DNA of 64,000 nucleotides from a virus (IMGVR_UViG_3300009095_001812:120990-184989); one strand, 5' to 3'; positions 1 through 64,000 are shown, counted from the stretch's first letter. A program made the numbers and translations. Notes: generated by a model not told the origin, from the letters alone.

Positions 1-273
1 GATGTATTTGTTCTTATCACTGATGAACAACAGAATGCAGGTACGCGACTCATGACTGCTTGGAAAGAGTACCGTTCTAAGGTCAATAAGAATGCTCAGT
101 TGTGGGTTGTTAACGCAACAAACTACCAGTGGCACTCTGCTGATTTTGGAGATTCATCAATCACTGTGTACCAGACCATGACTCCAGCACTATTCAAGAA
201 CCTTGAATATGTTGGTCAGAATCTAACGCAGGCAATTCGCAAGTTCTCGCTCTCTGATTTTGCGAAGAAGTAA
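1..273 (+). CDS. C-terminal fragment of a gene that starts upstream of the window; function unknown (possibly a vWA-like C-terminal domain)
   Basis: Open frame running from the window edge to a stop at 271-273. The tracked ORF at 52..273 is only the internal-Met version. Confidence 0.4.
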   Translation, partial: DVFVLITDEQQNAGTRLMTAWKEYRSKVNKNAQLWVVNATNYQWHSADFGDSSITVYQTMTPALFKNLEYVGQNLTQAIRKFSLSDFAKK

Positions 274-920: not shown

Positions 921-1138
921 TCACCTGCTCCCTGGGTACTCTACAATCCCAAAATATGCACAACGGAAACATTTAGCAGTCGAGAGCAGCTAATTTTTTT
1001 ATATTATATATAAGTAACGCGAATGAAGTTCATTCATCTTTATTTTAAAATAAAACCATTTCCGGCGTGAGCCGGGCTTGGACTTCAAAATTTCGTTACT
1101 GCTCTATTTGATGTGAATCTCGCGTAGAGCGCCAGAGG

Positions 1139-1194
1139 TCAACGCGCCAAAGATCATTCATCGGTAATTATGAGGTCTTTAATTATTTCGTTTG
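1139..1194 (+). ncRNA. Empty/minimal copy of the leader-trailer RNA element (no tRNA halves inside)
   Basis: Outer stem TCAACG (1139-1144) pairs with CGTTTG (1189-1194). Conserved CGCGCC follows, then the inner stem AAAGATC (1149-1155) pairs with GGTCTTT (1174-1180). The loop starts with the conserved ATTCATC. The same 12-mer AGATCATTCATC occurs at 53203-53220 and 62894-62912 on the minus strand. A trailer-like TTTCGTTACT sits just upstream at 1091-1100. Confidence 0.3.
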
Positions 1195-1214
1195 CTTCCA
1201 TTTCTTAACTGTAG

Positions 1215-2047: not shown

Positions 2048-2602
2048 ATGGCTGAACCAATTATAATTACGTTTGTCGATCTTGAAACAACTGGATTTGA
2101 TTCTAAGAAATGTGAAATCATCGAAGCAGCAGCTGTACGCTCTATTGTTGATGATGGAACTATCAGAATCGTAGCTCGTGCAGATTTCAAAATAGATCCG
2201 GAATATCCAGTGGATCCATTTATTGCAAGAATCAATGGGTACAGAGAAGATGTTTGGTATCAAGAAAGCTCTCAGTTTGAAGATGTAATTGGTGGTATTT
2301 TTGACCTGATGAGGGGAGCTTGGCATGCTGGCTCTAATCCTAGGTTCGATGAAAAATTCCTTATGAGAGCTGCAAAGATGCTTCGCTGGGATTATCCCAA
2401 ACTAGCATCTTATCATCTGTTGGATGTTAGTATGTTAGCTTTTCCTTTATTGGTAAAAGGGGAGGTCGAGAACCTTCGCCAACAGACGATTTGTAAGTAC
2501 TATGACATTCCCGGTGGAGGTCATAGAGCACTTGCCGACGCAATGCAGTGTCTTTATTTGTTTGCCAATATCAATAATTTGAAAGTTGTAACGGAGCAGT
2601 AA
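2048..2602 (+). CDS. DnaQ-like DEDDh 3'-5' exonuclease (DNA pol III epsilon-like)
   Basis: 184 aa. Exo I motif FVDLETTG near the N-terminus, H-x4-D near the C-terminus (GGGHRALADA). Confidence 0.75.
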   Translation: MAEPIIITFVDLETTGFDSKKCEIIEAAAVRSIVDDGTIRIVARADFKIDPEYPVDPFIARINGYREDVWYQESSQFEDVIGGIFDLMRGAWHAGSNPRFDEKFLMRAAKMLRWDYPKLASYHLLDVSMLAFPLLVKGEVENLRQQTICKYYDIPGGGHRALADAMQCLYLFANINNLKVVTEQ

Positions 2603-4828: not shown

Positions 4829-5495
4829 ATGGAATCTGTTGTTATCGAAATACGTGCCGCTGAAGGTGGTGCGGATTCAAAGTTGTTATGTGAAGATATG
4901 CTCGTAGCGTACACGAAAGCGGGAGACCGGGAGCGTCTTTGACTCGGAACTCCTAGAGTCTCAGCCTGGCTTGATAGTTATCTTATTCAAAGGAAGAGGA
5001 GCCAAAGCACTTTTCAAAAACGAAGCTGGAGGTCACCGCTGGCAGCGAATACCTCCAACTGAAAAACGTGGTCGTGTCCAAACATCTACCGTTACTGTTG
5101 CTGTTTTAGATCCAGAACCATCTACAAAATTTGTTCTCGATGAGAAGGATGTTGAAATAAAGACAAGTCGAGGATCGGGTCCTGGTGGTCAACATAGAAA
5201 CAAGACAGATTCATGTGTAACGGTTACACACAAACCAACCAAGACATCCGTTCGCATTGACATGCGAAGTCAACATCAGAGCCGTGAAATGGCTCTGAAA
5301 GTTCTTGCGGCCAAATTGGCAGATGAGTCAACCAATTTGGATCGAAAGGACAGAGAGCGACTTCGCAAGTCTCAGGTGGGATCTGGCATGCGCGGAAATA
5401 AAATCCGCACCTACAGATTCCAAGATGATCAAGTAACTGATCATCGAACGGGAAAGTGTTGGAAACTTAAAAAATGGATACGAGGCGAGTGGTAA
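4829..5495 (+). CDS. prfB: Class I peptide chain release factor homolog (RF2-like, N-terminally truncated) with a programmed +1 frameshift
   Basis: Frame 0 (4829..4939) encodes MESVVIEIRAAEGGADSKLLCEDMLVAYTKAGDRERL, matching the EIRAGAGGDEA region of release factors. It stops at TGA 4940-4942 inside the classic RF2 shift site CTT TGA C, with an SD-like GGGAG 3 nt upstream. The +1 frame (4941..5495) continues with GGHRWQRIPPTEKRGRVQTS, SGPGGQHRNKTDS and the conserved C-terminal RSQVGSGMRGNKIRTY..VTDHR. An AAGGAG RBS sits 7 nt before the ATG. Joined product is about 221 aa. Confidence 0.8.
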
Positions 5496-7349: not shown

Positions 7350-7892
7350 ATGAAAAGATCTGCTGCAATCGCATCAGCCCGTATAGGAACTAAAGAATCT
7401 AGGTTCAATACCATTGTTGAGATACTTGATCTCAAACATAAAGGTGATTGGCGCATTTGGGAAGATGCAGAATCAAACATCTTGAAGATATCCAAAAACG
7501 GAGCTGTACAGGTTTATCCATCAAAAATCTCTATTACAACAAGAGATATCTTCAAGAAGGCAGAGCCAAAGCTCATTGCCAAGCACTCATATTGGGTGCT
7601 GTGTTTGTTTGGGACAACACAGAAAATACTTGTGTTTCTTGGTAATGATGGAATTCTTAGATGTTGCCTGTTTGATAACAATCAGTGGATAGAAAATTTA
7701 AGTTCTGTTCTTTTGGGGTTCAAAACATTAAAAGTTATAGCTTCTGGATATATAGACTCAGAACCAAGAAGGATGCCACAAATGAATATTACGTATCCTA
7801 AGAGTTTCGAGATCGAGGAGGCTTGGGCTTCTGGATATCCATCTAATGATTCACAGTTACAGGAGAAAATACAGTGTCTGGGGATAAGTTAA
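7350..7892 (+). CDS. Hypothetical protein
   Basis: 180-aa ORF. Confidence 0.5.
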   Translation: MKRSAAIASARIGTKESRFNTIVEILDLKHKGDWRIWEDAESNILKISKNGAVQVYPSKISITTRDIFKKAEPKLIAKHSYWVLCLFGTTQKILVFLGNDGILRCCLFDNNQWIENLSSVLLGFKTLKVIASGYIDSEPRRMPQMNITYPKSFEIEEAWASGYPSNDSQLQEKIQCLGIS

Positions 7893-8101
7893 AATTTGGA
7901 GGGATTATTTTAGGGGCTTTGGGAAATGGTTTTTTCTCAGTTGGCATTGATCTCGAAAACGGTTCTGAGCCGAAGCGTACTATTTGTCAGCTGTCAGGTA
8001 AAATGAGAATCAAGACCATCAAAGTTGTCGAGGGTGATAAAGTTGATGTAGAGCTTGATCCATATGACATGAATAAGGGCAGAATTGTTCGCCGCAATTA
8101 A
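7874..8101 (+). CDS. infA: Translation initiation factor IF-1 homolog (S1-like OB fold)
   Basis: 75 aa. The C-terminal SGKMRIKTIKVVEGDKVDVELDPYDMNKGRIVRR aligns closely with E. coli IF1 ([34 protein letters not shown]). Confidence 0.85.
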   Translation: MSGDKLKFGGIILGALGNGFFSVGIDLENGSEPKRTICQLSGKMRIKTIKVVEGDKVDVELDPYDMNKGRIVRRN

Positions 8102-15469: not shown

Positions 15470-15783
15470 AATTCTTTTTCCTCATTCTGGTATTGAGCCT
15501 TTACAGCTTTACCATATATGATTTTGGTCCAACCATTTTCAAATCCGTGATTGTTTGCAATCATGTATTTTCCATCGGAGTCTATCTTTGTAATTTTGTG
15601 AGCGTCGATATATCGACCCTTTACCTTACAGAAAACGATATCTCCAATTTCATATTTTTCTTGTTTGATAAAAGTAAGCAATGAACCAGATTTGAGAATT
15701 GGAACCATTGAGGATCCAAAACATTTCATTTGCCCAGAGCCGGTTGCTGCTAACTTTATCTTCAAAGCTTCATATTTGCTCAT
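15466..15783 (-). CDS. Hypothetical protein
   Basis: 105-aa ORF. Confidence 0.5.
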   Translation of the reverse strand: MSKYEALKIKLAATGSGQMKCFGSSMVPILKSGSLLTFIKQEKYEIGDIVFCKVKGRYIDAHKITKIDSDGKYMIANNHGFENGWTKIIYGKAVKAQYQNEEKEL

Positions 15784-16307
15784 TACGCAGTTAGACCTAA
15801 AAGCTCTCTCCCTTTATCATGAGAACCTTGTGTAAGCGCCATTGCATCAGGTCCAGCAAGCTTTCTGAACGTTGCTTCGTGAACAAGCTCATCCTTTAGA
15901 ATGCGCTGAAAAATTTTACGAATATCCTCAGGAGCCTCATCATCATCTGCAATGACTTTTATACGCTCAAGGCGCATTGCCTCTGCGTGGGCTCCAACAG
16001 CAGCACCGGTTTCAAAGGAGTCAATGTAAGGAAGAGTTTGTTTCCAATATTTCTCCTCTGCGTTATCAATATCTGGAGTTATGTCCCGAGCAATCAATAA
16101 GTCCAGAACCCAGATAGCATGCATCTGTTCTTGATTAGCAATCACCATCAAATTACGAATTACATTCGTATCATTTGAGTACTGATGAGCAAACCTAGTG
16201 ATTCTATTGGCGGCTGTAATCTCACCCCTGTATTGCTTGACAAGCCAATCTGTTAGAAGAGCTGGGTCTTTCTTTACTTCAGTCCACCATTCTTGTGATG
16301 TCTTCAT
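15783..16307 (-). CDS. Ferritin-like diiron-carboxylate protein (two ExxH motifs)
   Basis: 174 aa. NQEQMHAIW and KDELVHEATF give two ExxH motifs spaced as in ferritin-like or MiaE-like four-helix bundles. Confidence 0.45.
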   Translation of the reverse strand: MKTSQEWWTEVKKDPALLTDWLVKQYRGEITAANRITRFAHQYSNDTNVIRNLMVIANQEQMHAIWVLDLLIARDITPDIDNAEEKYWKQTLPYIDSFETGAAVGAHAEAMRLERIKVIADDDEAPEDIRKIFQRILKDELVHEATFRKLAGPDAMALTQGSHDKGRELLGLTA

Positions 16308-21701: not shown

Positions 21702-22607
21702 TTATCCCATTAATTGGATGCTAGAATATTCAGTGTTGCTCAAATCAAAATCGACTACGTTTTTCTTCAAGTGATCAATGTAGTACTGAACATCTTCACC
21801 TCCTGATATTTCATGAGATGTAATCTTGCTTTCTAGTTTCTTTCGAATATCACCGATCTTTGGACCAAAAGGAACGTTGAATTCTTTTGCGATGACATTA
21901 CCCAATCCCTTAGGTAGTGTGTTTTGCTTTGAATCAATCTCTTGAATCTTGAGAACTCTTTCTCTCAACTCTTCAATAGAATCAAGAATTTTTTGTTTCT
22001 TTGCTTGATTTGCTGTTGTGATATCAGCACTTGATAATGTAAGAATATCATCAAGATGATTTCCTATATCTTTACCAAAACGACGCACAGCGGAGTCTGT
22101 CCACTCAGATGAGTAGCTTTCAACATATCCCAAATTTCTTACAAGGAAATAGATCCTATCTCTTTGTCTTTGAGAGAAGATTCTAGAACGCTTTGCAAAG
22201 GCGCTAAAGATTTGAGCTGAGATTTTCTCATGGTTGTGGAATGTTACTTTTTTGTTCTTGATTGAGAATGCACGAGCCTTTCCAAGATCATGAAACAGAG
22301 CTGCCCATCTCAGGATTGTTACTGGTGGTGTTTGACTTACAACACGAATTGTGTGCGGCCAAATTTCCTTGAACCGTTTTGATGATTTCAGCTCCAAAGA
22401 TTCTCTGATTTCCGGAATGAGATATTCAAAGAATCCAGCTCTCTGAAGCGCAACAAGGGCAATGCCAACGTGAGGGCCTCTTACAATTTCGTGAAGAACC
22501 ATCAACTGATTTCCTAATGCCCGTACATCTTCGTTTGTGATGGGTTTAATTTTACCATCACAAATTCCAGTAATTGCAAGCTGTTGAGCTTGTTTTAGCA
22601 GTTCCAT
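21702..22607 (-). CDS. HD-domain phosphohydrolase (resembles the HD module of bacterial CCA-adding enzymes / 2',3'-cyclic phosphodiesterase)
   Basis: 301 aa. H...HDLGK motif at WAALFHDLGKA, plus downstream conserved His/Asp residues. Confidence 0.65.
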   Translation of the reverse strand: MELLKQAQQLAITGICDGKIKPITNEDVRALGNQLMVLHEIVRGPHVGIALVALQRAGFFEYLIPEIRESLELKSSKRFKEIWPHTIRVVSQTPPVTILRWAALFHDLGKARAFSIKNKKVTFHNHEKISAQIFSAFAKRSRIFSQRQRDRIYFLVRNLGYVESYSSEWTDSAVRRFGKDIGNHLDDILTLSSADITTANQAKKQKILDSIEELRERVLKIQEIDSKQNTLPKGLGNVIAKEFNVPFGPKIGDIRKKLESKITSHEISGGEDVQYYIDHLKKNVVDFDLSNTEYSSIQLMG

Positions 22608-34226: not shown

Positions 34227-34865
34227 TTAGATGCTTCTATTTATGAAGCTTTCGGCATATAGAATATCTTGAACAGAAGATATTTCAAAAGATCTTTTTT
34301 CAGGAATAACAACACACTTAGTATTATCTGTAATAAATTTTTTGTTGTTCAAAAATGATTTAGCTTTGCATATGCTAAATGAACAAAATTTGTAATATAT
34401 CATTCCATCTTCTGGATGGCTGAATATTGGGATGACGTACTTTTCAGGAGATATCAAACAAGCTGATTGAATCGAATCCACCATCTTACAGACACCGACA
34501 ACAGAATCTACATCAGAGTTAGAAAATAGATTGAATCCTTTTTTGATATCATCAATACTTACAAACGGAAATAGAGACGAAAAATAGGAAAACGTATCTC
34601 CGATTTCAAGATCAAAAGTTGATGCGATAGCTATGACGTTATCTATATCATCTTCATATTTCGAATCAAATTTTTGGACTTGAAGATCCGAAACAGCGTA
34701 ATAAACAGAATCGGTGTCCGTAGAGATAATGATGATATCAAAAAGATTGGAGTTCACAACAGTTTGAGTGATCCATCTAATTAGAGGCTTTCCATCTAGG
34801 GAATAAAGATTCTTATTTTCTAGTCTTGAGGCCCCTCTTGCAGGTATTACTGCAACATTTACCAT
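34227..34865 (-). CDS. Cytidylyltransferase (CMP-sugar synthetase; NeuA/KdsB/PseF-like)
   Basis: 212 aa. N-terminal VIPARGASRLENKNL..LDGKPLIRW..IIISTDTD matches the CMP-Kdo / CMP-sialic acid synthetase signature (IPARxxSxxxxxKN). Confidence 0.7.
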   Translation of the reverse strand: MVNVAVIPARGASRLENKNLYSLDGKPLIRWITQTVVNSNLFDIIIISTDTDSVYYAVSDLQVQKFDSKYEDDIDNVIAIASTFDLEIGDTFSYFSSLFPFVSIDDIKKGFNLFSNSDVDSVVGVCKMVDSIQSACLISPEKYVIPIFSHPEDGMIYYKFCSFSICKAKSFLNNKKFITDNTKCVVIPEKRSFEISSVQDILYAESFINRSI

Positions 34866-46146: not shown

Positions 46147-46863
46147 CTATTCCTCGACTTGCTCTAAAAGCACGTCGATATACTCCCGGTTTTCTTGAAA
46201 CCGTGGAATCTCAAGATCGGTTGATCCATTTACCAATACACACCAACCTCTTTTATTGATTGTAGGTATTTGTTCCCAATCTATACTTTTCTCATCAAGA
46301 AGCATCTTCTTCATTTCCTTGCAAGACTTACCCTGCAACATTCTGTGAGAAAAATGAGCCTGTGCCAATGAAGAAACAGAATTTCGTTCAGCGTCTTGTT
46401 GTCTCCAAACAAAATAGTTACACGCCTCTTCTCTTGGTATTACAAAAGCTCTGGAATCAAACATTGCCAATTTAGAAATGACAATCTTTTCATCCATCAT
46501 ATATTTGTTGAAATATGCCGTGGCGATGGATGCAGACACAGATACAATCTTTTGTAACTCTTTTCCAAACCACGCCTGAGTTTCAAAGTTCTCGTAATCA
46601 TTTACTAAAATGGATATTTCATCAGATTGGATGTACGCAAGTTTTGCACCCTGGATGTTTTCCATTAGTCCTTTGGCAGCTTGAGTCATTGCACTTTGAA
46701 TACTCTGATCAAAGGGCCTGGTAAAACCCTTTGTATATGAGTGAAATGCTTTACCATCGCAGCGAATTATCATAGGCATGCGTGGGGTTAGGGCAATTTT
46801 AGAGACGTTCTCATAACTTTTCATTCGGTTGCCTAAAGATGATTTCTCCATTTTACCTCTCAA
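46147..46863 (-). CDS. Thg1-like protein (tRNA-His guanylyltransferase family; 3'-5' polymerase / tRNA 5'-end repair)
   Basis: 238 aa. IRCDGKAFHSYTKGF..PFDQ and YIQSDEISILV align with Thg1 motifs (RxDGRxFH..., QSDEYSF). Downstream YFVWRQQDAERNS resembles the Thg1 WRQ(A/Q)D motif. Confidence 0.75.
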   Translation of the reverse strand: MRGKMEKSSLGNRMKSYENVSKIALTPRMPMIIRCDGKAFHSYTKGFTRPFDQSIQSAMTQAAKGLMENIQGAKLAYIQSDEISILVNDYENFETQAWFGKELQKIVSVSASIATAYFNKYMMDEKIVISKLAMFDSRAFVIPREEACNYFVWRQQDAERNSVSSLAQAHFSHRMLQGKSCKEMKKMLLDEKSIDWEQIPTINKRGWCVLVNGSTDLEIPRFQENREYIDVLLEQVEE

Positions 46864-53054: not shown

Positions 53055-53228
53055 TAGTGACGAAAAAAAGCGAGACCATTTTTTATCGGCGTCCTAGTCC
53101 CCTAGACGAAACTCGCGAGTTGAGAAGATAAAGATCTCAAAATGGGAATTTTAAGTTCCCGGTGCGAGCTGGGAGATTCGAACTCCCGTTTCCGGCTTGA
53201 TGCGATGAATGATCTCTGTCGCGTCACT
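53055..53228 (-). ncRNA. Permuted/split tRNA-like cassette 1: tRNA 3' half upstream of its matching 5' half, enclosed by a conserved leader/trailer
   Basis: Read 5' to 3' on the minus strand. Leader outer-stem strand AGTGACG (revcomp of 53222-53228). Motif CGCGAC-AGAGATCATTCATC. Then GCATCAAGCCGG-AAAC, T-arm GGGAG-TTCGAAT-CTCCC (53171-53187), acceptor 3' strand AGCTCGC (53164-53170), discriminator A, CC. Next is the hairpin GGGAA-CTTAAAA-TTCCC (53144-53160) and a 27-nt spacer. Then the acceptor 5' strand GCGAGTT (53110-53116, 7 bp complementary to AGCTCGC with one G-U), TC, D-arm GTCT-AGGGGACTA-GGAC, G, CCGAT-AAAAAAT. Trailer: GGTCTCGC-TTTTTTT-CGTCACTA (53055-53077). Leader GAGATC pairs with trailer GGTCTC, and leader GTGACG pairs with trailer CGTCAC. 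Confidence 0.5.
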
Positions 53229-53231
53229 TAG

Positions 53232-53305
53232 TTGCGGGAGAAGGATTTGAACCTTCGGTCTCCAGGTTATGAGCCTAGCGGGCTACCAGACTGCCCTATC
53301 CCGCG
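53232..53305 (-). tRNA. tRNA-Met (anticodon CAU), initiator-like (C1-A72 mismatch)
   Basis: Acceptor CGCGGGA / TCCCGCA with unpaired C1 and A72, a hallmark of bacterial initiator tRNA. D-arm GGGC-AGTCTGGTA-GCCC, anticodon arm CTAGG-CTCATAA-CCTGG, T-arm GAAGG-TTCAAAT-CCTTC. Confidence 0.75.
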
Positions 53306-53554: not shown

Positions 53555-53558
53555 ATTG

Positions 53559-53631
53559 TGACCCTAGAGGGATTCGAACCCTCGTTACCTGATAGAGAGT
53601 CAGGTGTCCTAAACCGTTAGACGATAGAGCC
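53559..53631 (-). tRNA. tRNA-Glu (anticodon CUC)
   Basis: Body matches E. coli tRNA-Glu (TC-GTCT...GGAC-A, variable TAAC, GAGGG-TTCGAAT-CCCTC). Anticodon arm CCTGA-CTCTCTA-TCAGG, acceptor GGCTCTA / TAGGGTC. Confidence 0.8.
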
Positions 53632-53634
53632 ATG

Positions 53635-53748
53635 GCAACGAAAATGTGTCGACAAATTGCAGAACCAACACTGCGTCCAAAGCTTACGCCCTGGATAGGA
53701 ATCGAACCTATGAATCTAATAAAGATGAAATGTCAACTTGCGCGTTGC
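53635..53748 (-). ncRNA. Degenerate copy of the leader/trailer tRNA-like cassette (T-arm and acceptor-like module only)
   Basis: Leader outer GCAACG (revcomp of 53743-53748), CGCAAG, inner stem strand GTTGAC, conserved ATTTCATC. T-arm ATAGG-TTCGATT-CCTAT plus CCAGGGC-G. Trailer inner stem GTCGAC (53648-53653), ACATTTT, outer CGTTGC (53635-53640). No complementary 5' acceptor strand or D-arm found. Confidence 0.35.
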
Positions 53749-56131: not shown

Positions 56132-56732
56132 TCACTCATCGAGTGTCTCTGTGTATGCATCACTTAAGTCCGAACCGATGTTTTTTAATCGATCCCAAGT
56201 GAATGGCCTTGGGTTTTCACGCAATAATGATGCTCCAACCGAATCCAGCGCGATGTCGACTGGGAGGAGCGCTGTTTTGACGCTTGCACTGCCTAGTTTT
56301 TTGATTGCTCTGAAAATACTCATATTCTAAAATATCCTTTGCCTTCTCTTTCGATTCTATCTTTTTCTGTGAGTCTAATTAGTTGTTGATCAACTTCTGT
56401 CATAACTGAACTAAGACGTGCAGAAAAACCAATTGAAGATCTTGGAGCATCATGATACTGGTCTGATACGATTGAAATCAGATCAATTTGTTGACGCGAG
56501 CAGAACTGTTCAAACTTTATATCTTTCATTAGGTACTCGATAAACTGAAAGTATCAGGAATGAAATGAAGTGTCCAGCTTGATTCTAAAACCCAAAACAT
56601 TACAGATTTGTTATCCGAATCCATAAAATCAGGAAGTTGTTTTAGATGGTTTTGACACAATGAAAATATGAGCATTGGACTAATACTATCACACGGCGGT
56701 ACGTATGTCAAGCCATTTTTTATAGTGTTCAT
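56132..56732 (-). CDS. Three consecutive small hypothetical ORFs (56132..56323, 56320..56529, 56529..56732)
   Basis: 63, 69 and 67 aa, same strand, with start/stop overlaps. They sit upstream of the rfb operon. Confidence 0.35.
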
Positions 56733-57507
56733 TAGGTCCTAAAATTTCATCAGTTTTAGATGTGTCCAGAACGCTATAACTAGGGCGCAAGGCCTGCCTT
56801 GGAAATTCATTTGTAGAACAAGGCTTGATATTACAGGAAGATCCTACCTTGTGAGAAATGTCTTTTGCAAACTCAAACCACGAACAACTACCTCCATCTG
56901 TAATATGAAAAGTTCCAGTTTGTTTCAGATCGATTAGCTTCAAAGTTCGCTGGGCCAAACCAATTACATGAGTAGGGCGGCCGAACTGATCATTAACTAC
57001 ACTAATTTCATCTTGGGTATTCAAAAGGCGTAACATTGTTTGTAAAAAATTATTACCCCAAGGAGCGTAAACCCAACTTGTCCGAATCAAAAGATAATTA
57101 GCACCAGATGATTGAAGTAATTCCTCACCACGAAGTTTGGAACGCCCATAAGCATTAATGGGACTTCTTTTATCGTCAGTTTTATAAGGTGTCTCTGAAG
57201 ATCCGTCGAAAACATAATCTGTACTAAAATGTACAAACTTTGCACCAACAATAGCGCACTGTTCTGCAAGACTTCCAACTGCATCGCCATTAACGCGAGA
57301 GGCTATATCCTCTTCCTTTTCGGCATCATCAACTTTTGTATATCCTGCGCAGTTGATTACACAATCACCAACATCAATTGGTAATTTTAAATTTTCAAAC
57401 TTACACAAATCAGCTTGGGCTCGATCTAAAAATATAGATTCTTTTGGTAAGAGCTTTGTAAAAGCTTTTCCTAATTGACCACTGGATCCTAGAATAATAA
57501 ATTTCAA
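56689..57507 (-). CDS. rfbD: dTDP-4-dehydrorhamnose reductase
   Basis: 272 aa. N-terminal GxxGxxG Rossmann motif (ILGSSGQLG). Position and size fit RmlD as the last step of the operon. Confidence 0.75.
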   Translation of the reverse strand: MKFIILGSSGQLGKAFTKLLPKESIFLDRAQADLCKFENLKLPIDVGDCVINCAGYTKVDDAEKEEDIASRVNGDAVGSLAEQCAIVGAKFVHFSTDYVFDGSSETPYKTDDKRSPINAYGRSKLRGEELLQSSGANYLLIRTSWVYAPWGNNFLQTMLRLLNTQDEISVVNDQFGRPTHVIGLAQRTLKLIDLKQTGTFHITDGGSCSWFEFAKDISHKVGSSCNIKPCSTNEFPRQALRPSYSVLDTSKTDEILGPNEHYKKWLDIRTAV

Positions 57508-58052
57508 AATATTTCCTTATAAACAGGAAGATTTTTGATATCTTTCAAAAAAGGAGCTTCACTATCTTTTGAAGAAAGTAATGGATTTTCTATAGGCCAT
57601 GGAATATTTAAATCAGGGTCTCTAAATGATATACTCATTTCACAAGATTTTTCATATACATTAGTACATTTATATAAAACATGAGCACTATCACTAAGAA
57701 CACAAAACCCATGAGCAAATCCGGGCGGTACGTAAAATTGATATTTGTTTTGAGAGTTTAGTTCCGTAGCGCAATATCTACCAAATGTTGGAGATCCTAT
57801 TCGAACATCAACTGCAACATCCCAAATACATCCCGTAATAGCCATGACCAATTTTCCCTGATCATTTGGATGTTGTAAATGTAAACCACGTAAAGTTCCA
57901 TTGTATGAATATGAAAGATTATCTTGAACAAATTTTATTTCTTGAGGAAACGATCTTATAGAAAATGTTTCCGTAAAAAATCCACGATAATCAAAAATAA
58001 CACGAGGTTTAATAAGTAAAACCTCAGGTATTTCTTGTTGAACAATTTCCAT
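57504..58052 (-). CDS. rfbC: dTDP-4-dehydrorhamnose 3,5-epimerase
   Basis: 182 aa cupin. RGLHLQ and the His/Lys/Tyr catalytic pattern match RmlC. Confidence 0.75.
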   Translation of the reverse strand: MEIVQQEIPEVLLIKPRVIFDYRGFFTETFSIRSFPQEIKFVQDNLSYSYNGTLRGLHLQHPNDQGKLVMAITGCIWDVAVDVRIGSPTFGRYCATELNSQNKYQFYVPPGFAHGFCVLSDSAHVLYKCTNVYEKSCEMSISFRDPDLNIPWPIENPLLSSKDSEAPFLKDIKNLPVYKEIF

Positions 58053-58925
58053 TTATATTTCCTTTTTTAACAAAGAATTTAAATATTTTGCATAATCTGT
58101 TTTTCCTAAAGAACTTATACTCTTTCGCAGATCGGGTTCGGTTATCCATTTCGAATTGAAAGCAATTTCTTCTGGGCAAGCAATTTGCAAACCCTGCTTT
58201 TCCTGTACCGTTTGTACAAACTGAGATGCTTGTAACATTGCTTCTGGAGAACCTGTATCAAGCCAAGCAATACCCCTACCAAGTTTTACACATAACAAAG
58301 AACCATTGTTGAGATACATTCTGTTCAAATCTGTTATTTCCAATTCACCTCGGGAAGATGGCTGTAGTGTTTTAGCAAATTCAGAAACCCGATGGTCATA
58401 AAAATAAAGACCAGTAACCGCATAATTACTTTTGGGTTGCTTTGGTTTTTCTTCAAGTGATATGACTTGACCCAACTGATCAAATTCAGCAACTCCATAT
58501 ATTTCAGGAGTTGCTGTGTGATATCCAAATATTTTAGCGCCGTGAGTTAGCTTGGCCGCATTCTGTAACTCACCTTGTAAACCATGACCAAAGAAAATGT
58601 TATCACCAAGAACAAGTGAGCACGGTTCGTTATTGATAAATTTTTCACCAATGATAAATGCTTGAGCTATACCATTTGGAGATTGCTGAACTTCCTGTTG
58701 AATATTCAAACCCCACTGAGAACCATCGCCAAGAGTTTTAGAAAAAGACTCTTTATCTTCGGGTGTTGTTATAACAAGTACATCTCTAATTCCGGCAAGC
58801 ATTAGTACGCTAAGCGGATAATAAATCATAGGTTTATCATAAACAGGAATTAGTTGTTTACTAACACCTCTAGTAATTGGAAATAATCTAGATCCTGTAC
58901 CACCAGCTAATATAATTCCCTTCAT
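58053..58925 (-). CDS. rfbA: Glucose-1-phosphate thymidylyltransferase
   Basis: 290 aa. N-terminal [16 protein letters not shown] is the classic G-x-G-T-R-L nucleotidyltransferase signature. RmlA-like throughout. Confidence 0.85.
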
Positions 58926-59977
58926 TCAATACCACGCTTAGTATAGTTTTCTTCAATCCAAAATTGGTATTTGCCAGATGTAACTGAATTTACCCAATCT
59001 TGATTATCTATATACCAATCTACTGTTTTTTGTAGACCAGATTCTATTGTTTCTTGCGGGGACCAACCACACTCTTTTCTTATCTTGGTTGAGTCAATCG
59101 CATATCTTAGATCATGCCCTGGACGATCTTTTACATAAGTAATTAAAGATAAAATATCATCTTCAGACTCTCCTAGTTTTTTAGAAAGCAAAGTGCATAA
59201 AGCTTTAATAAGATTTATATTTGAACATTCATTATTACCACCTACATTGTAAGTTTCTCCAACTCTACCATTTTCATGTACAGCCCAGATAGCAGAACAA
59301 TGATCTTCAACATATAACCAATCACGTACGTTTTCACCTTTACCATAAACAGGTATTGGTTTTCTTTGTAGTACATTACTAATTACCAAAGGTATTAGTT
59401 TTTCTGGAAACTGATATGGTCCATAGTTATTTGAGCAATTAGTTATATTAACAGGAAGTCCGTATGTTTTATGATACGCTCGAACTAAATGATCACTAGA
59501 CGCTTTAGAAGCTGAATAGGGACTAGAAGGATCATATGGTGTTTTTTCTGTAAACAAACCATTCTGATCTAAAGACCCATATACTTCATCAGTACTTACG
59601 TGATGAAAGATAATTGATTTTTGTTTTCTGGATTCTTCGAGTAAATTGAATGTTCCAATTATATTGGCTTGTATGAAAGCTCCAGGTCCAAGAATACTAC
59701 GATCAACATGACTTTCTGCGGCAAAATGAAAAACAACGTCAGGTTGTACTCTTGCAAATAATGATTGAACTTCAATAGGATTTGAGATATCAACACGCGA
59801 GAATTCGTAATTTCCAAGCTTAGAAATATTTTCTAGATTTTGTAAATTAGCTGCGTATGTCAAATTATCTGCATTTACAAAATGCACTTCTTTCATTATT
59901 GGTACTGATTTTAGTAAAAAATTAGAACCAATAAATCCAGCCCCACCTGTCACTAAAATTTTCTTATCAAAATCCAT
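58922..59977 (-). CDS. rfbB: dTDP-glucose 4,6-dehydratase
   Basis: Start reassigned to [18 protein letters not shown] (ATG 59975-59977). The tracked ORF's extra N-terminus is the translated tRNA-Val. YxxxK and TGGAGFIGS are SDR motifs of RmlB. Confidence 0.85.
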
Positions 59978-60051
59978 GGTGCAAGATAGAGGATTCGAAC
60001 CTCTGACCACTTCCTAGTCAAAGAAGCACTCTACCGCTGAGTTAATCTTGC
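59977..60051 (-). tRNA. tRNA-Val (anticodon GAC), 3' CCA encoded
   Basis: Perfect acceptor GCAAGAT / ATCTTGC, D-arm ACTC-AGCGGTA-GAGT, anticodon arm CTTCT-TTGACTA-GGAAG, T-arm AGAGG-TTCGAAT-CCTCT, discriminator A then CCA. The CCA overlaps the rfbB start codon. Confidence 0.8.
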
Positions 60052-61034: not shown

Positions 61035-61604
61035 ATGGTATGTGTCATTTGTAAAGAATGCAAAAACACGTTTGATATTCATCAAGCAGAGATAAATAGA
61101 GGAAATGGTAAGTTTTGCAGTTCAAAATGCTCTGCTAAATTTTACGGTTACCTAAGGAAAAAACCAAAGACACCTAATGTAAAATGTGCTCATTGTGGTT
61201 GTGAATTTTACAAGCAACCGTCAAAAATGAAGAATTCTAAAAGCGGAATTTTCTTCTGTTGTAGAGAGCACAAAGACTTATCACAACGTATAGGCGGCAT
61301 CAAAGAAATTATGCCATCACATTATGCTAATGGTGATGGAAGGCATTATCGTAAGATTGCTCTTTCACAAAAACCTATGGAATGTGAACGTTGTGGTTAT
61401 AATAAACATCCTGCTGGGATTGTAGTTCATCATAAAGACAGAGATAGAACCAATAATTCAATCGAGAATTTAGAGGTTCTCTGCGCTATTTGTCATAATA
61501 TTGAGCACTATGACGAATCGGTGGAGGCGATGGGATTCGAACCCACAAGGTCTTCTTTGCAAGAGAAGATTGTAACCCAATTACCACCCCCAGTGGGAGC
61601 ATGA
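61035..61604 (+). CDS. HNH endonuclease with N-terminal zinc ribbons
   Basis: 189 aa. CVICKEC...CSSKCSAKF and CAHCGCEF zinc ribbons. C-terminal HNH motif HHKDRDRTNNSIENLEVLCAICHN. The C-terminus overlaps tRNA-Ala on the opposite strand. Confidence 0.7.
   Translation: MVCVICKECKNTFDIHQAEINRGNGKFCSSKCSAKFYGYLRKKPKTPNVKCAHCGCEFYKQPSKMKNSKSGIFFCCREHKDLSQRIGGIKEIMPSHYANGDGRHYRKIALSQKPMECERCGYNKHPAGIVVHHKDRDRTNNSIENLEVLCAICHNIEHYDESVEAMGFEPTRSSLQEKIVTQLPPPVGA
61522..61591 (-). tRNA. tRNA-Ala (anticodon UGC)
   Basis: Acceptor GGGGGTG / CGCCTCC with G3-U70. Perfect anticodon arm CTTCT-CTTGCAA-AGAAG, T-arm GTGGG-TTCGAAT-CCCAT, discriminator A. The D-arm is short and irregular (ATTG-GGTTA-CAAT). Confidence 0.7.
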
Positions 61605-62603: not shown

Positions 62604-62614
62604 AAATTCTTAGC

Positions 62615-62682
62615 AGTTCTGGAGGGATTCGAACCCTACACGTTCGAAGCGTGCTGCACTAATCCGCCGTGCTACAGAACCA
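62615..62682 (-). tRNA. Noncanonical 68-nt tRNA-like gene (anticodon UCG, Arg-like) lacking a variable region; possible pseudogene
   Basis: Acceptor GGTTCTG / CAGAACT (G1-U72). D-arm GCAC-GGCGGATTA-GTGC, anticodon arm GCACG-CTTCGAA-CGTGT, then directly AGGG-TTCGAAT-CCCT. No nucleotides are left for positions 44-48. Confidence 0.4.
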
Positions 62683-62688
62683 TATAGC

Positions 62689-62763
62689 AGTCCCAGAAGG
62701 ATTCGAACCTTCATAAACCCAGCTTCGTAGACTGGTGCATTATCCAGTTATGCTATGGGACTA
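62689..62763 (-). tRNA. tRNA-Arg (anticodon ACG)
   Basis: Perfect acceptor AGTCCCA / TGGGACT, D-arm GCAT-AACTGGATA-ATGC, anticodon arm CCAGT-CTACGAA-GCTGG, T-arm GAAGG-TTCGAAT-CCTTC, discriminator G. Confidence 0.85.
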
Positions 62764-62767
62764 AAAT

Positions 62768-62921
62768 AGTAACGAAAAAAGTTGAGACCTCACGCTCCTC
62801 TGCTCTGCCAACTGAGCTACCTTCCCATGAACTGAACCCTAAGGTCCCGGTGGGAAGAGTTAGATTCGAACTAACGACACAAGGTTTTCAATTGATGAAT
62901 GATCTCTAGGCGCGTTACTAA
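62768..62921 (-). ncRNA. Permuted/split tRNA-like cassette 2: tRNA 3' half upstream of its matching 5' half, enclosed by a conserved leader/trailer
   Basis: Read 5' to 3' on the minus strand. Leader outer TAGTAACG (revcomp of 62914-62921). Motif CGCC-TAGAGATCATTCATC, then AATTGAAA-ACCTT-GTGTC. T-arm GTTAG-TTCGAAT-CTAAC (62860-62876), acceptor 3' strand TCTTCCC (62853-62859), discriminator A, CC. Linker GGGACCTTAGGGTTCAGTTCAT. Acceptor 5' strand GGGAAGG (62821-62827, pairs with TCTTCCC), TA, D-arm GCTC-AGTTGGCA-GAGC, A, GAGGA, GCGTGA. Trailer: GGTCTC-AAC-TTTTTT-CGTTACTA (62768-62790). Leader GAGATC pairs with trailer GGTCTC, and TAGTAACG pairs with CGTTACTA. Confidence 0.5.
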
Positions 62922-63052: not shown

Positions 63053-63736
63053 TCAAGTTATAACAACTATACCAAATCCCTTCTTTAGCCTTTTACGGAC
63101 AGCGTTGTCGGAGACGCCAAATCTTTTACCAGTTCCAACAAATCCTAAAGTATCTATAAGGATTTTTAATTCATCATAGGGTGGCCATTGGATTTTGCAA
63201 AAAGAGTCATCTTCTATAGAGCATTTTTTGCATTTATCTGCGTGGCCACCGATAATTTTATTGCATTTGGAACAATGATTTTGGGGACGCTGTCTCAATG
63301 CCCCTCTTGAATATGTAGGGGTTATTGAATGACAATTGGGACAAAGCAATCTAAGATTTTCTATCCTGTTGTCATAATGGTCACCATTGATATGATCAAG
63401 GTGCAACGACAATTTTTGACCACGCCAGTGCGTATTACCACACTCTTTACACTCATCTATAATAATGTTAGATTCTATCAATCTTCTCTTTAATGATGAA
63501 GAGCTGTAATCAACATCATTCTTTAGAACTTCATCTAAAGTTTTGGGCGGTGTCCTTTTGAATTTTTTACGATGAAGATGGGATGTATCTAATCTAAGTT
63601 CATCTATTCTTCTTTTGACGCTATACCTATTTCCAGCAAATGGTTTTAAACCCAACCTCTCTACGATTTCGGTTATGGTATTGGAGTCTCTGGTAGCTGT
63701 TTCTAATTCAGTATCAGACCATTTTCGTTTACGCAT
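63053..63736 (-). CDS. HNH endonuclease with an N-terminal DNA-binding (HTH-like) region
   Basis: 227 aa. Same architecture as the intron-encoded HNH. ECGNTHWRGQKLSLHLDHINGDHYDNRIENLRLLCPNCH, and N-terminal ITEIVERLGLK resembles the other copy's IRQVLFKLELK. Confidence 0.8.
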   Translation of the reverse strand: MRKRKWSDTELETATRDSNTITEIVERLGLKPFAGNRYSVKRRIDELRLDTSHLHRKKFKRTPPKTLDEVLKNDVDYSSSSLKRRLIESNIIIDECKECGNTHWRGQKLSLHLDHINGDHYDNRIENLRLLCPNCHSITPTYSRGALRQRPQNHCSKCNKIIGGHADKCKKCSIEDDSFCKIQWPPYDELKILIDTLGFVGTGKRFGVSDNAVRKRLKKGFGIVVIT

Positions 63737-63920: not shown

Positions 63921-63998
63921 TCCTAAAATAGTACAACGAAAATTGCGCAGACCCTTTGCTCTACCGCTGAGCTATTCGGCCATAAATGCGGCCGAAAT
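63921..63998 (-). ncRNA. Permuted/split tRNA-like cassette 3, truncated by the window edge (5' half and trailer visible)
   Basis: Acceptor 3' strand TTCGGCC (revcomp of 63988-63994), discriminator G, 7-nt linker CATTTAT. Acceptor 5' strand GGCCGAA (63973-63979), TA, D-arm GCTC-AGCGGTA-GAGC, A, AAGGG. Trailer: TCTGCGCAA-TTTT-CGTTGTACTA-TTTTAG (63921-63949). The T-arm and leader should lie beyond position 63998. Confidence 0.4.
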
Positions 63999-64000
63999 AA

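What the first reader, a model, noticed from the sequence alone, without database searches (positions are those of the whole stretch)
62768..62921. Family of circularly permuted / split tRNA-like cassettes with covarying leader-trailer helices
At 62768-62921 (minus strand) a tRNA 3' half (T-arm GTTAG-TTCGAAT-CTAAC, acceptor strand TCTTCCC, discriminator A) lies 22 nt UPSTREAM of a tRNA 5' half (GGGAAGG-TA-GCTC-AGTTGGCA-GAGC-A-GAGGA). The 5' acceptor strand is exactly complementary to the upstream 3' acceptor strand (7 bp, one G-U). The same inverted order recurs in cassette 1 at 53055-53228 (AGCTCGC upstream, GCGAGTT downstream) and in cassette 3 at 63921-63998 (TTCGGCC upstream, GGCCGAA downstream, 7-nt linker). 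All copies share a 5' leader CGCGMC-NAGAGATCATTCATC and a 3' trailer GGTCTC-N2-3-TTTTTT-CGTYACTA-TTT. The 12-mer AGATCATTCATC occurs three times in the window (1150-1161, 53203-53220, 62894-62912). Leader GAGATC pairs with trailer GGTCTC in every copy. An outer stem covaries between copies: GTGACG/CGTCAC, GTAACG/CGTTAC, GCAACG/CGTTGC and CAACG/CGTTTG. Compensatory changes of this kind are what a conserved RNA helix looks like. The layout is 3' half, linker, 5' half, with leader and trailer paired. That matches the permuted and split tRNA precursors of red algae, prasinophytes and archaea, which are not established in phages or bacteria. A 2-3' ligation or trans-annealing route to functional tRNAs from these pieces would be new biology.
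Basis: seen in the sequence. Interest (0 to 1): 0.9.

Follow-up and report, generated by a model that had tools for sequence, protein, structure and literature searches.

The report
Phage Y RNA family mimicking tRNA
The "split tRNA" cassettes are real structured RNAs, but they are best explained as a large family of tRNA-mimicking Y RNA-like molecules that partner with a Ro60 protein encoded by the same giant phage, not as precursors of working tRNAs.

Summary
At 62767-62920(-), a T-arm plus 3' acceptor strand lies upstream of a 5' acceptor strand plus D-arm, all carried on a two-helix stem formed by the RNA's ends. I found 6 copies in the window, 12 in 81 kb of the 446 kb source contig, and 39 distinct copies in related huge-phage and metagenome contigs. 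None turned up in bacterial genomes. The basal stems are 99.8% paired, with compensatory changes at 14 of 17 pairs. The tRNA-like helices covary as well.

The interpretation as permuted or split pre-tRNAs is not right. No copy has an anticodon arm. The "acceptor" stem is usually a closed hairpin, often capped by a GNRA tetraloop. About 12 copies have no tRNA-like insert at all. The ortholog of cassette 1 has only a 5-bp hairpin where cassette 1 has its long linker.

This layout is that of bacterial and phage Y RNA-like YrlA RNAs. The window begins with the 3' end of a Ro60/Rsr gene, and two family members follow it on the same strand. Three related contigs show the same arrangement.

What is new is a distinct basal module, at least 12 copies per genome, and placement 0-5 nt from tRNA genes. 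Ro60 binding is inferred, not shown.

The parts
62767..62920 (-). Flagged element c2: a complete Y RNA-like RNA of 154 nt. It has basal stem S1 (62913-62920 pairing with 62767-62774), a 5' bulge CGCCUA (62907-62912), stem S2 (62901-62906 pairing with 62784-62789), the invariant AUUCAUC (62894-62900) and a U-rich 3' bulge (62775-62783).
   Evidence: Sequence. The unbiased minimum-free-energy fold reproduces S1, S2, the T-arm and the closed acceptor stem. Covariation. YrlA hit of 29.7 bits, E=5.6e-4.
62802..62875 (-). tRNA-like domain of c2: T-arm 62859-62875; acceptor-like stem, 3' strand 62852-62858 pairing with 5' strand 62820-62826; 25-nt closing loop 62827-62851 (A-CC followed by a small hairpin); U8-A9; D-arm 62802-62817.
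   Evidence: G53-C61, the UUCGAAU T-loop, GG in the D-loop and G15:C48 are all present.
53056..53228 (-). Element c1 (173 nt): same plan, with a 7-bp acceptor-like stem closed by a 47-nt loop containing two hairpins. It starts 2 nt after tRNA-Met (53231-53305).
   Evidence: Its ortholog Z2 in L259 has a 5-bp hairpin in place of the long loop.
53635..53748 (-). It ends 3 nt before tRNA-Glu (53558-53631).
   Evidence: Its positional ortholog Z1 in L259 has a GAAA-capped stem.
63931..64000 (-). Element c3: the 3' 70 nt of a 110-nt copy cut by the window end. The complete copy is at L121 9697-9806. Its acceptor-like stem is closed by a 6-8 nt loop.
1013..1100 (+). Element A (88 nt): basal module with bulge CGAAU and a plain hairpin instead of a tRNA-like domain. 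It lies about 740 nt downstream of the Ro60 gene on the same strand.
   Evidence: (26.3 bits, E=8.5e-5).
1138..1197 (+). Element B (about 60 nt): a minimal copy with both basal stems, AUUCAUC and an 11-nt loop. A strong hairpin follows at about 1217-1245.
   Evidence: 28.4 bits, E=2.1e-5.
1..273 (+). 3' end (amino acids 440-529 plus the stop codon) of the phage Ro60/Rsr gene. The full 529-aa gene is at L205 6083-7672.
   Evidence: Pfam vWA_Ro60, 54 bits. D. radiodurans Rsr 2NVO, E=4.3e-13 over residues 31-487. tblastn places window 1-270 at residues 440-529. Matches actinophage 'Ro-like RNA binding proteins' over 78-90% of its length.
62687..62762 (-). tRNA-Arg(ACG), 4 nt downstream of c2. RNase P cleavage at its 5' end would create the 3' end of c2.
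   Evidence: The processing step is inferred.

Best explanation
These are members of a multi-copy family of Y RNA-like noncoding RNAs (YrlA/YrlB type) encoded by a clade of huge phages.

**Architecture.** Each RNA has a conserved basal module built from its own 5' and 3' ends:
- stem S1, ending ...ACG/CGU...
- an asymmetric bulge, 5' side CG(C/A)N and 3' side U-rich
- stem S2, with a conserved U.G wobble
- an invariant single-stranded UUCAUC

On top of this sits a variable apical domain. In about half of the copies it is a tRNA body without an anticodon arm: T-arm, closed acceptor-like stem-loop and D-arm.

**Proposed mechanism.**
- Shown: the RNAs sit 0-5 nt from tRNA genes on the tRNA-sense strand.
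- Inferred: they are transcribed as units of tRNA polycistrons and released by the tRNA-processing enzymes. RNase P at the next tRNA's 5' end would make their 3' end.
- Inferred: the basal module binds the phage-encoded Ro60/Rsr ring protein.
- Inferred: the tRNA-like elbow gives a nuclease-resistant fold and/or docks the particle onto tRNA-recognising enzymes or exoribonucleases. Candidates are host PNPase and the two RNase T-like exonucleases encoded beside the Ro60 gene. The particle would then work as in known Ro60-Y RNA-exoribonuclease complexes.

The different apical domains would act as interchangeable adaptors.
For: **Topology matches YrlA.** YrlA (RF02553) is the only non-tRNA Rfam family these elements hit: 29.7 bits for c2, and 40.3, 33.8 and 30.3 bits for relatives, two of them across the full-length model including the basal stems. 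Chen et al. 2014 (PMC4201824) define YrlA as T-arm, acceptor-like stem-loop and D-arm on a long 5'/3' stem.

**Structure is conserved by selection.** The Levitt pair covaries: G15:C48 in five copies and A15:U48 in X1 (alignment A2).

**RNA strand is defined.** There are 22 G.U cells among the 18 copies, including the conserved S2 wobble, found in 28 of 39 copies. These would be A.C mismatches on the other strand.

**The partner protein is present.** A 529-aa Ro60/Rsr ortholog ends at window position 273.

**Elements follow the Ro60 gene on the same strand within about 1.5 kb in four contigs.**
- the source contig (A and B)
- L120 (Ro60 71% identical; X1, X2, X3)
- L135 (69%; Y1, Y2, Y3)
- L467 (56%; four elements)

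L120, L135 and L467 were found through the RNA motif, not through the protein.

**Modularity resembles YrlA/YrlB.** About 12 of the 39 copies have the basal module only.

**Precedent.** Phage Ro60 with nearby Y RNA-like RNAs is known for mycobacteriophages, CcrColossus and phage G (PMC4201824). For Thermus phage phiLo, binding to the phage Ro60 and to host PNPase has been shown (PMC12135203).
Against: - All YrlA scores are below Rfam's gathering score of 69.
- The proposed Ro60-contact motif GNCGAAN0-1G is not present as defined. Only the CG is invariant; CGAA occurs in 1 of 39 copies.
- The flagged copy is 62 kb from the Ro60 gene and on the opposite strand, so it fails the '4 kb, same strand' criterion that defined YrlA.
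- One related contig with this Ro60 (L209, 78% identical) has only a decayed remnant at the syntenic spot and no model hit.
- Ro-like genes sit next to tRNA arrays in unrelated actinophages too. Part of the Ro60 adjacency could therefore follow from both features being linked to tRNA arrays.
- There is no expression or binding data.
- The fold z-score for c2 alone is only -1.3.
Confidence: 0.75

Rival explanations
1. Permuted or split tRNA precursors. The leader and trailer pair, the transcript is cut and ligated or trans-annealed, and a functional decoding tRNA results.
For: The 3'-half-then-5'-half order is real, with 7-bp complementary acceptor strands, a canonical U8-A9, D-arm and T-arm in c2, c3 and L121 5690-5826. 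c1 and c2 encode A-CC after the acceptor strand. The phage encodes CCA-adding-like enzymes and a Thg1-like enzyme.
Against: - No anticodon stem-loop can be assembled in any of the 39 copies.
- The leader/trailer structure is two helices of 6-9 bp and 5-8 bp separated by a bulge of 3-6 nt against 6-11 nt. It is not a bulge-helix-bulge motif.
- The acceptor stem is capped by tetraloops or short loops in most copies.
- About 12 copies have no tRNA part at all.
- c1's linker and ACC are absent from its ortholog, and c2's CC is absent from the related copy M389.
- The two halves do not derive from any one phage tRNA.
Confidence: 0.03
2. Ro60-independent elements of tRNA arrays. In this view the basal module is a processing, stability or punctuation signal, for instance for a phage or host endonuclease. 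The tRNA-like tops would be decoys or sponges for host tRNA-binding or tRNA-targeting factors. Adjacency to the Ro60 gene would be incidental.
For: All copies abut tRNAs by 0-5 nt. Most copies lie far from the Ro60 gene. L209 keeps Ro60 without intact adjacent elements, while L259, from the same sample, keeps the array copies. Ro-like genes neighbour tRNA arrays in unrelated phages. The canonical Ro60 contact motif is not conserved.
Against: - Elements A and B follow the Ro60 gene with no tRNA within 3 kb.
- Four contigs repeat the arrangement of Ro60 followed by elements.
- The only known RNA class with this topology is the Ro60 partner.
- Decoys for anticodon nucleases would need an anticodon loop, which is absent.
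Confidence: 0.17
3. DNA-level repeats or decayed tRNA pseudogenes: remnants of tRNA duplication and deletion, miniature mobile elements with inverted-repeat ends, or homing-endonuclease scars, with no RNA function.
For: HNH endonuclease genes are interspersed in the arrays, at 63053-63736 and 61035-61604. The elements have inverted-repeat termini.
Against: - Helices are maintained by compensatory changes while their sequences diverge.
- G.U pairs are tolerated on one strand only.
- The single-stranded motifs are invariant.
- Positional orthologs in L259 have entirely different helix sequences but the same structure.
- There are no target-site duplications or transposase genes.
Confidence: 0.03

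Closest known systems
YrlA (Rfam RF02553), the bacterial and phage Y RNA-like tRNA mimics that bind Ro60/Rsr (Chen et al. 2014, PMC4201824)
   Same: - The order is T-arm, then a closed acceptor-like stem-loop, then D-arm, on a stem-bulge-stem formed by the RNA's ends.
- tRNA tertiary positions are kept, including a covarying 15:48 pair.
- Several differing copies occur per genome, some without the full tRNA-like domain (compare YrlB).
- Copies are encoded next to a Ro60 gene on the same strand.
- A 7-bp acceptor variant exists that could be cut by RNase P, as in M. smegmatis.
   Different: - The basal module has a different sequence: invariant CG|CG junction, UUCAUC and a U-rich 3' bulge, with no GNCGAAN0-1G.
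- Scores are 30-40 bits against a gathering score of 69.
- There are at least 12 copies in 81 kb, rather than 1-2 near the rsr gene.
- Most copies are dispersed up to 70 kb or more from the Ro60 gene, on either strand.
- Every copy is embedded 0-5 nt from tRNA genes.
Yrl1 and Yrl2 of Thermus phage phiLo with phage Ro60 (PMC12135203)
   Same: A phage-encoded Ro60 with small stem-bulge-stem RNAs encoded beside it. This shows that phage Ro60 proteins bind such RNAs and can recruit host PNPase.
   Different: The phiLo RNAs were picked by a CGAA motif, lie upstream of the gene, number two, and are not described as tRNA-like or as embedded in tRNA arrays.
Circularly permuted tRNA genes of Cyanidioschyzon merolae and some prasinophytes, and split tRNAs of Nanoarchaeum (from my own knowledge)
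   Same: The 3' half, with T-arm and 3' acceptor strand, lies upstream of the 5' half, with 5' acceptor strand and D-arm. The leader and trailer pair.
   Different: Those genes reconstitute a full cloverleaf with an anticodon loop through a bulge-helix-bulge motif, a splicing endonuclease and a ligase. Here there is no anticodon arm and no bulge-helix-bulge motif, and the acceptor stem is usually closed by a tetraloop.
Two-piece (permuted) tmRNA, and the small stable RNAs encoded in the T4 tRNA cluster (species 1 and 2) (from my own knowledge)
   Same: These are tRNA-like noncoding RNAs. Permuted tmRNA has the same gene-order inversion. The T4 RNAs are co-transcribed and co-processed with phage tRNAs.
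   Different: There is no tag reading frame or pseudoknots, and ARAGORN finds no tmRNA. No sequence or structural similarity to the T4 RNAs was tested.

Membership tests
Y RNA-like / YrlA | T-arm, then a stem-loop in the acceptor position, then D-arm, carried on a long stem formed by the 5' and 3' ends | tested here: met
   About 18 of the 39 copies, including the flagged one.
Y RNA-like / YrlA | Conserved tRNA tertiary nucleotides, including a covarying Levitt 15:48 pair | tested here: met
   Alignment A2: G53-C61 invariant; UUCRAWU T-loop; GG in the D-loop in 6 of 7 copies; 15:48 is G:C in five, A:U in one and A:C in one.
Y RNA-like / YrlA | GNCGAAN0-1G (CGAA) motif near the 5' end, proposed as the Ro60 contact | tested here: not met
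   The 5' bulge begins with an invariant CG: CGCN in most copies, CGCAA in four, CGAA only in element A (alignment A5). It occupies the same position in a stem-bulge-stem but has a different sequence.
Y RNA-like / YrlA | Encoded within 4 kb of a Ro60/TROVE gene on the same strand | tested here: met
   Met for the family: A and B in the window, and clusters in L120, L135 and L467. Not met for the flagged copy itself, which is 62 kb away on the opposite strand, nor for L209.
Y RNA-like / YrlA | Reaches the Rfam RF02553 gathering score of 69 bits | tested here: not met
   Scores of 29.7, 30.3, 33.8 and 40.3 bits. Three deposited Ro60-encoding phages also show no gathering-level YrlA hit near the gene, so this threshold is not very informative for phages.
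Y RNA-like / YrlA | Physically bound by Ro60/Rsr | not testable with these tools
   Needs immunoprecipitation or a gel-shift assay.
Circularly permuted tRNA gene | 3' half upstream of 5' half with complementary acceptor strands | tested here: met
   (topology only).
Circularly permuted tRNA gene | The halves together supply a complete anticodon stem-loop | tested here: not met
   No anticodon arm in any of the 39 copies. At most a 2-4 bp helix lies below the D/T junction, followed by the open basal module.
Circularly permuted tRNA gene | Bulge-helix-bulge motif at the leader/trailer junction | tested here: not met
   The junction consists of helices of 6-9 bp and 5-8 bp with a bulge of 3-6 nt against 6-11 nt.
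Circularly permuted tRNA gene | A linker between the acceptor ends that is removed to give free 5' and 3' ends | tested here: inconclusive
   Long linkers occur in c2, c1, M389 and M414. Most copies have tetraloops or 5-8 nt loops, and c1's linker is absent from its ortholog.
Two-piece tmRNA | tRNA-like domain plus a tag reading frame and pseudoknots | tested here: not met
   ARAGORN and Rfam report no tmRNA in the window. The elements are only 60-175 nt long.

The most novel reading that the evidence does not exclude
A clade of huge phages runs its own Ro60-centred RNA surveillance or repair system, with a dozen or more interchangeable Y RNA adaptors co-transcribed with the phage's tRNAs.

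In this reading, a subset of copies is cut in the loop by RNase P. These are the ones with a 7-bp acceptor stem, an encoded A-CC and a long loop, such as the flagged c2 and also c1. They would then be trimmed by the RNase T-like exonucleases encoded beside the Ro60 gene and completed by the phage's CCA-adding enzyme. The product would be a two-piece, CCA-tailed tRNA mimic that couples Ro60 to tRNA-handling machinery. One possible role is to sense or counter host attacks on the tRNA pool.
Probability: 0.15. Interest if true: 0.8.

Novelty: new variant of a known kind. Interest (0 to 1): 0.55.

Why it matters
Y RNAs and Ro60 are conserved from bacteria to humans, where Ro60 is a major autoantigen. 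Why bacterial Y RNAs carry a tRNA-like module is still unknown.

This phage clade offers a natural experiment. One Ro60 gene is accompanied by a dozen or more Y RNA-like paralogs. They share a sharply defined basal module but carry different tops:
- a full tRNA body
- a T-arm only
- nothing at all

All are wired into tRNA operons. That makes three questions directly testable:
- which part binds Ro60
- what the tRNA-like part docks to
- whether Y RNA production is coupled to tRNA production

The finding also shows that the Rfam YrlA model misses such phage families, so Y RNAs are probably under-annotated in large phage genomes. It does not show a new route to making tRNAs.

Tried and rejected
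- **Deposited phages.** Megablast and blastn of the region against deposited phages found no match.
- **First viral scan.** The 14-mer AGAGATCATTCATC gave 119 loci, all chance hits.
- **Looser viral scan.** Leader plus T-loop gave 80 loci, of which only L135 was real. The rest were ordinary tRNAs, such as tRNA-Glu anticodon regions, or coding sequence.
- **A mistyped local pattern** returned nothing.
- **Hammerhead or other ribozyme.** I considered this on either strand and rejected it by inspection. The core motifs are absent, and Rfam permissive scans list no ribozyme.
- **Integron attC-like or inverted-repeat DNA element.** Rejected because of the strand-specific G.U pairs and the T- and D-loop signatures.
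- **UUCAUC pairing with the 3' side or elsewhere in the RNA.** Not consistent across copies.
- **Covariance model R1 of the basal module.** It found no further convincing copy in the window; 34306-34351 scores only 15 bits, E=0.16. It found none in actinophage or megaphage Ro60 neighbourhoods.
- **Promoter and terminator scans.** The number of sites was no higher than chance.
- **Bacterial genome scan.** 48 hits, none passing the full-element filter.
- **Reviews.** Two Wolin-lab reviews were not held in the library. The supplements of Chen et al. 2014 were also not held.
- **Walking along the contig.** I could not go beyond about 81 kb of the 446 kb contig, so the total copy number per genome is a lower bound.

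Full report
**1. What is there**

The window is part of a 446,112-bp phage-like metagenome contig, ENA ERZ27256727 k141_1871243. It is extremely rich in tRNA genes. ARAGORN finds 21 in the window and 16 more in the next 10 kb.

On the minus strand, 62920-62767 reads as follows:
- outer stem strand TAGTAACG
- bulge CGCCTA
- inner stem strand GAGATC
- ATTCATC
- a short spacer
- a canonical T-arm, GTTAG-TTCGAAT-CTAAC
- 3' acceptor strand TCTTCCC, then A-CC
- a 24-nt linker containing a small hairpin
- 5' acceptor strand GGGAAGG, then TA
- a canonical D-arm, GCTC-AGTTGGCA-GAGC
- a spacer, then GGTCTC
- a U-rich bulge
- CGTTACTA

Neither ARAGORN nor Rfam's tRNA model calls this region.

**2. It is a large family**

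I used a motif-plus-pairing scan and a covariance model of the basal module. They found six copies in the window:
- c1, 53056-53228(-)
- c4, 53635-53748(-), which is new
- c2, 62767-62920(-)
- c3, 63931-64000(-), truncated by the window end
- A, 1013-1100(+)
- B, 1138-1197(+)

Six more lie in the 9.7 kb beyond the window's right end (L121). Related copies occur in other huge-phage contigs:
- L120 (218 kb), three copies
- L135 (336 kb), three copies
- L259 (169 kb), three copies
- about 20 more in metagenome contigs

A scan of one genome from each of 185,579 bacterial and archaeal species gave no true member. Deposited phage genomes have no similar DNA. In total I hold 39 distinct sequences.

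**3. The structure is under selection**

For the two basal helices across 39 copies:
- 99.8% of 576 cells form standard pairs, against 35-56% when the 3' strand is slid by 1-3 columns.
- 14 of 17 pairs have changes on both sides, in 126 cells.
- None of 500 shuffles reaches the observed values (18-copy version).

The invariant positions are the CG|CG junction at the top of S1, UUCAUC after S2, and UUU|CG on the 3' side. A U.G wobble in S2 is kept in 28 of 39 copies. G.U pairs would be A.C mismatches on the other strand, so the functional strand is the tRNA-sense RNA.

For the T, acceptor-like and D helices in seven copies, 98.2% of cells are paired and 15 of 16 pairs are compensatory. G53-C61 and the T-loop are invariant. 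The 15:48 tertiary pair reads G:C in five copies and A:U in one. An unbiased fold of c2 reproduces the architecture.

One caveat applies. The alignments were hand-registered. The position of S2's 3' strand was chosen by best pairing. The metagenome copies were also filtered on pairing, so the percentage paired is somewhat inflated. The compensatory changes and the slid-register controls are not affected in the same way.

**4. Why these are not tRNA precursors**

- No copy has an anticodon stem-loop. The open basal module sits where the anticodon arm would be.
- Among the roughly 18 copies with a full tRNA-like domain, the 'acceptor' stem is closed by GAAA or GUAA tetraloops in at least seven (one read by eye), by UUUU in one and by 5-8 nt loops in six. 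Long linkers occur only in c2, c1, M389 and M414.
- About 12 copies (B, L121 5546-5613, X3, Y2, Y3 and others) have the basal module with almost nothing on top. Others carry a T-arm plus unrelated hairpins.
- L259 is syntenic with the window's array: tRNA-Ile, Z1, tRNA-Glu, tRNA-Met, Z2 in L259, against c4, tRNA-Glu, tRNA-Met, c1 in the window. Z2 is clearly the ortholog of c1, yet it has a 5-bp hairpin where c1 has a 7-bp stem, ACC and a 47-nt loop.
- The halves of each copy do not match any one phage tRNA.
- The leader/trailer structure is not a bulge-helix-bulge motif.

**5. What it is**

A permissive Rfam scan gives YrlA (Y RNA-like) as the only non-tRNA family hitting these elements:
- 29.7 bits for c2, covering the T-arm, acceptor-like stem and D-arm
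- 40.3 and 30.3 bits across the full-length model, and 33.8 bits, for relatives

All are below the gathering score of 69. Tandem tRNAs can give about 24 bits, so these scores alone are weak.

The decisive evidence is context. The DNA just left of the window (L205) encodes a 529-aa protein that hits the Ro60 vWA domain at 54 bits. It aligns over residues 31-487 with D. radiodurans Rsr (2NVO, E=4.3e-13). It also matches the 'Ro-like RNA binding proteins' of actinophages.

That gene ends at window position 273, and elements A and B follow 740-925 nt downstream on the same strand. The same arrangement recurs in L120 (Ro60 71% identical, then X1, X2, tRNA-Met, X3), in L135 (69%, then Y1, Y2, two tRNAs, Y3) and in L467 (56%, then four elements and a tRNA-Met). 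Those three loci were found through the RNA motif, not the protein.

Chen et al. 2014 (PMC4201824) defined YrlA by exactly this topology and by proximity to the rsr gene. They reported it in 22 phages. They also showed that an M. smegmatis YrlA with a 7-bp acceptor stem is cut by RNase P and receives CCA. Phage phiLo's Ro60 binds two adjacent Y RNA-like RNAs and host PNPase (PMC12135203).

**6. What does not fit neatly**

- The proposed Ro60-contact motif GNCGAAN0-1G is not conserved here; only CG is.
- The flagged copy lies 62 kb from the Ro60 gene, on the other strand.
- L209, found through the Ro60 protein (78% identical), has only a decayed remnant at the syntenic place. L259, from the same sample, retains array copies.
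- Ro-like genes neighbour tRNA arrays in unrelated actinophages, so adjacency is partly confounded. Against that, A and B have no tRNA within 3 kb.

I therefore file this as something that works like a Y RNA and is probably a Ro60 partner. It is a new variant rather than a member of Rfam YrlA in the strict sense.

**7. Mechanism**

Shown:
- a conserved stem-bulge-stem with invariant single-stranded motifs
- a variable apical domain that is often a tRNA body without an anticodon arm
- a position 0-5 nt from tRNA genes in every contig
- a Ro60 gene in the same genomes

Inferred:
- co-transcription with tRNAs, and release by RNase P and the tRNA 3'-end nucleases
- Ro60 binding to the basal module
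- the tRNA-like elbow giving stability and/or docking to tRNA-recognising enzymes or exoribonucleases

Relevant neighbours of the Ro60 gene are two RNase T-like exonucleases and a 501-aa CCA-adding/poly(A) polymerase-like protein. The window also encodes a Thg1-like enzyme and a second HD/CCA-like protein.

A few copies, c2 and c1 among them, could be cleaved into two pieces as in M. smegmatis. That feature is not conserved.

**8. Verdict**

The split-tRNA interpretation is replaced by a known class, Y RNA-like tRNA mimics. The novel aspects are a distinct basal module, expansion to at least 12 paralogs per genome, and integration into tRNA operons. Interest is moderate.

Noticed in passing
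window 42358-42434 (-); window 4971-5495 (+): A tRNA with anticodon CTA (an amber-reading suppressor, labelled 'Pyl' by ARAGORN) and a short 174-aa protein with PCRF/RF-1 release-factor domains. Together they hint at stop-codon recoding or manipulation of termination in this phage.
   Followed up: no
window 62614-62681 (-): Rfam calls a 68-nt tRNA at 40.3 bits that ARAGORN does not report. It appears to lack a variable region and lies directly after tRNA-Arg(ACG).
   Followed up: no
L205 1700-3205 (-), 4434-5111 (+), 9447-10001 (+), flanking the Ro60 gene; the last corresponds to window 2048-2602: The Ro60 gene is flanked by a 501-aa CCA-adding/poly(A) polymerase-like protein (PolyA_pol head plus HD domain) and two RNase T-family exonucleases. 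These are candidate enzymatic partners of a phage Ro60-Y RNA particle.
   Followed up: partly
window 46147-46863 (-), 21702-22607 (-), 15783-16307 (-), 7874-8101 (+): A set of translation and tRNA-metabolism genes: a Thg1-like 3'-5' nucleotidyltransferase, an HD/CCA-like protein, a MiaE-like tRNA hydroxylase and an IF1/eIF-1A-like protein.
   Followed up: partly
0-15 nt downstream of UUCAUC in many copies, e.g. window 62889-62893 (-), L120 X1 and X2, L135 Y2 and Y3: A second semi-conserved single-stranded motif, A(A/U)UUG(G/A), recurs after UUCAUC in roughly a third of the copies, whatever the apical domain type. Its role is unknown.
   Followed up: no
window 63053-63736 (-), 61035-61604 (+); L121 7611-8198 (-): HNH-type endonuclease genes are interspersed between the tRNA and Y RNA-like genes. 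This suggests homing-endonuclease traffic in the arrays.
   Followed up: no
L209 8440-8525: In a related contig the spot downstream of the Ro60 gene holds only a decayed copy. It has a trailer-like AAATTTCGTTACC and a leader resembling Y2, but no outer stem. L259, from the same sample, keeps intact array copies.
   Followed up: partly
L205 1-1539 (left of the window); window 56689-60010 (-); L121 2540-3574: Other unusual cargo: a ThyX gene interrupted by an intein with a LAGLIDADG domain, a complete dTDP-rhamnose pathway (RmlA, B, C and D), and a PAS-GGDEF diguanylate cyclase-like gene.
   Followed up: no
L121 2070-2185: One family member seems to carry a colinear rather than permuted tRNA-like top. 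It has a D-arm-like hairpin (GCG-AAAUGGUAAA-CGC), a 5-bp stem with a 4-nt loop, and then a T-arm. This suggests the basal module can host different tRNA-derived inserts.
   Followed up: no
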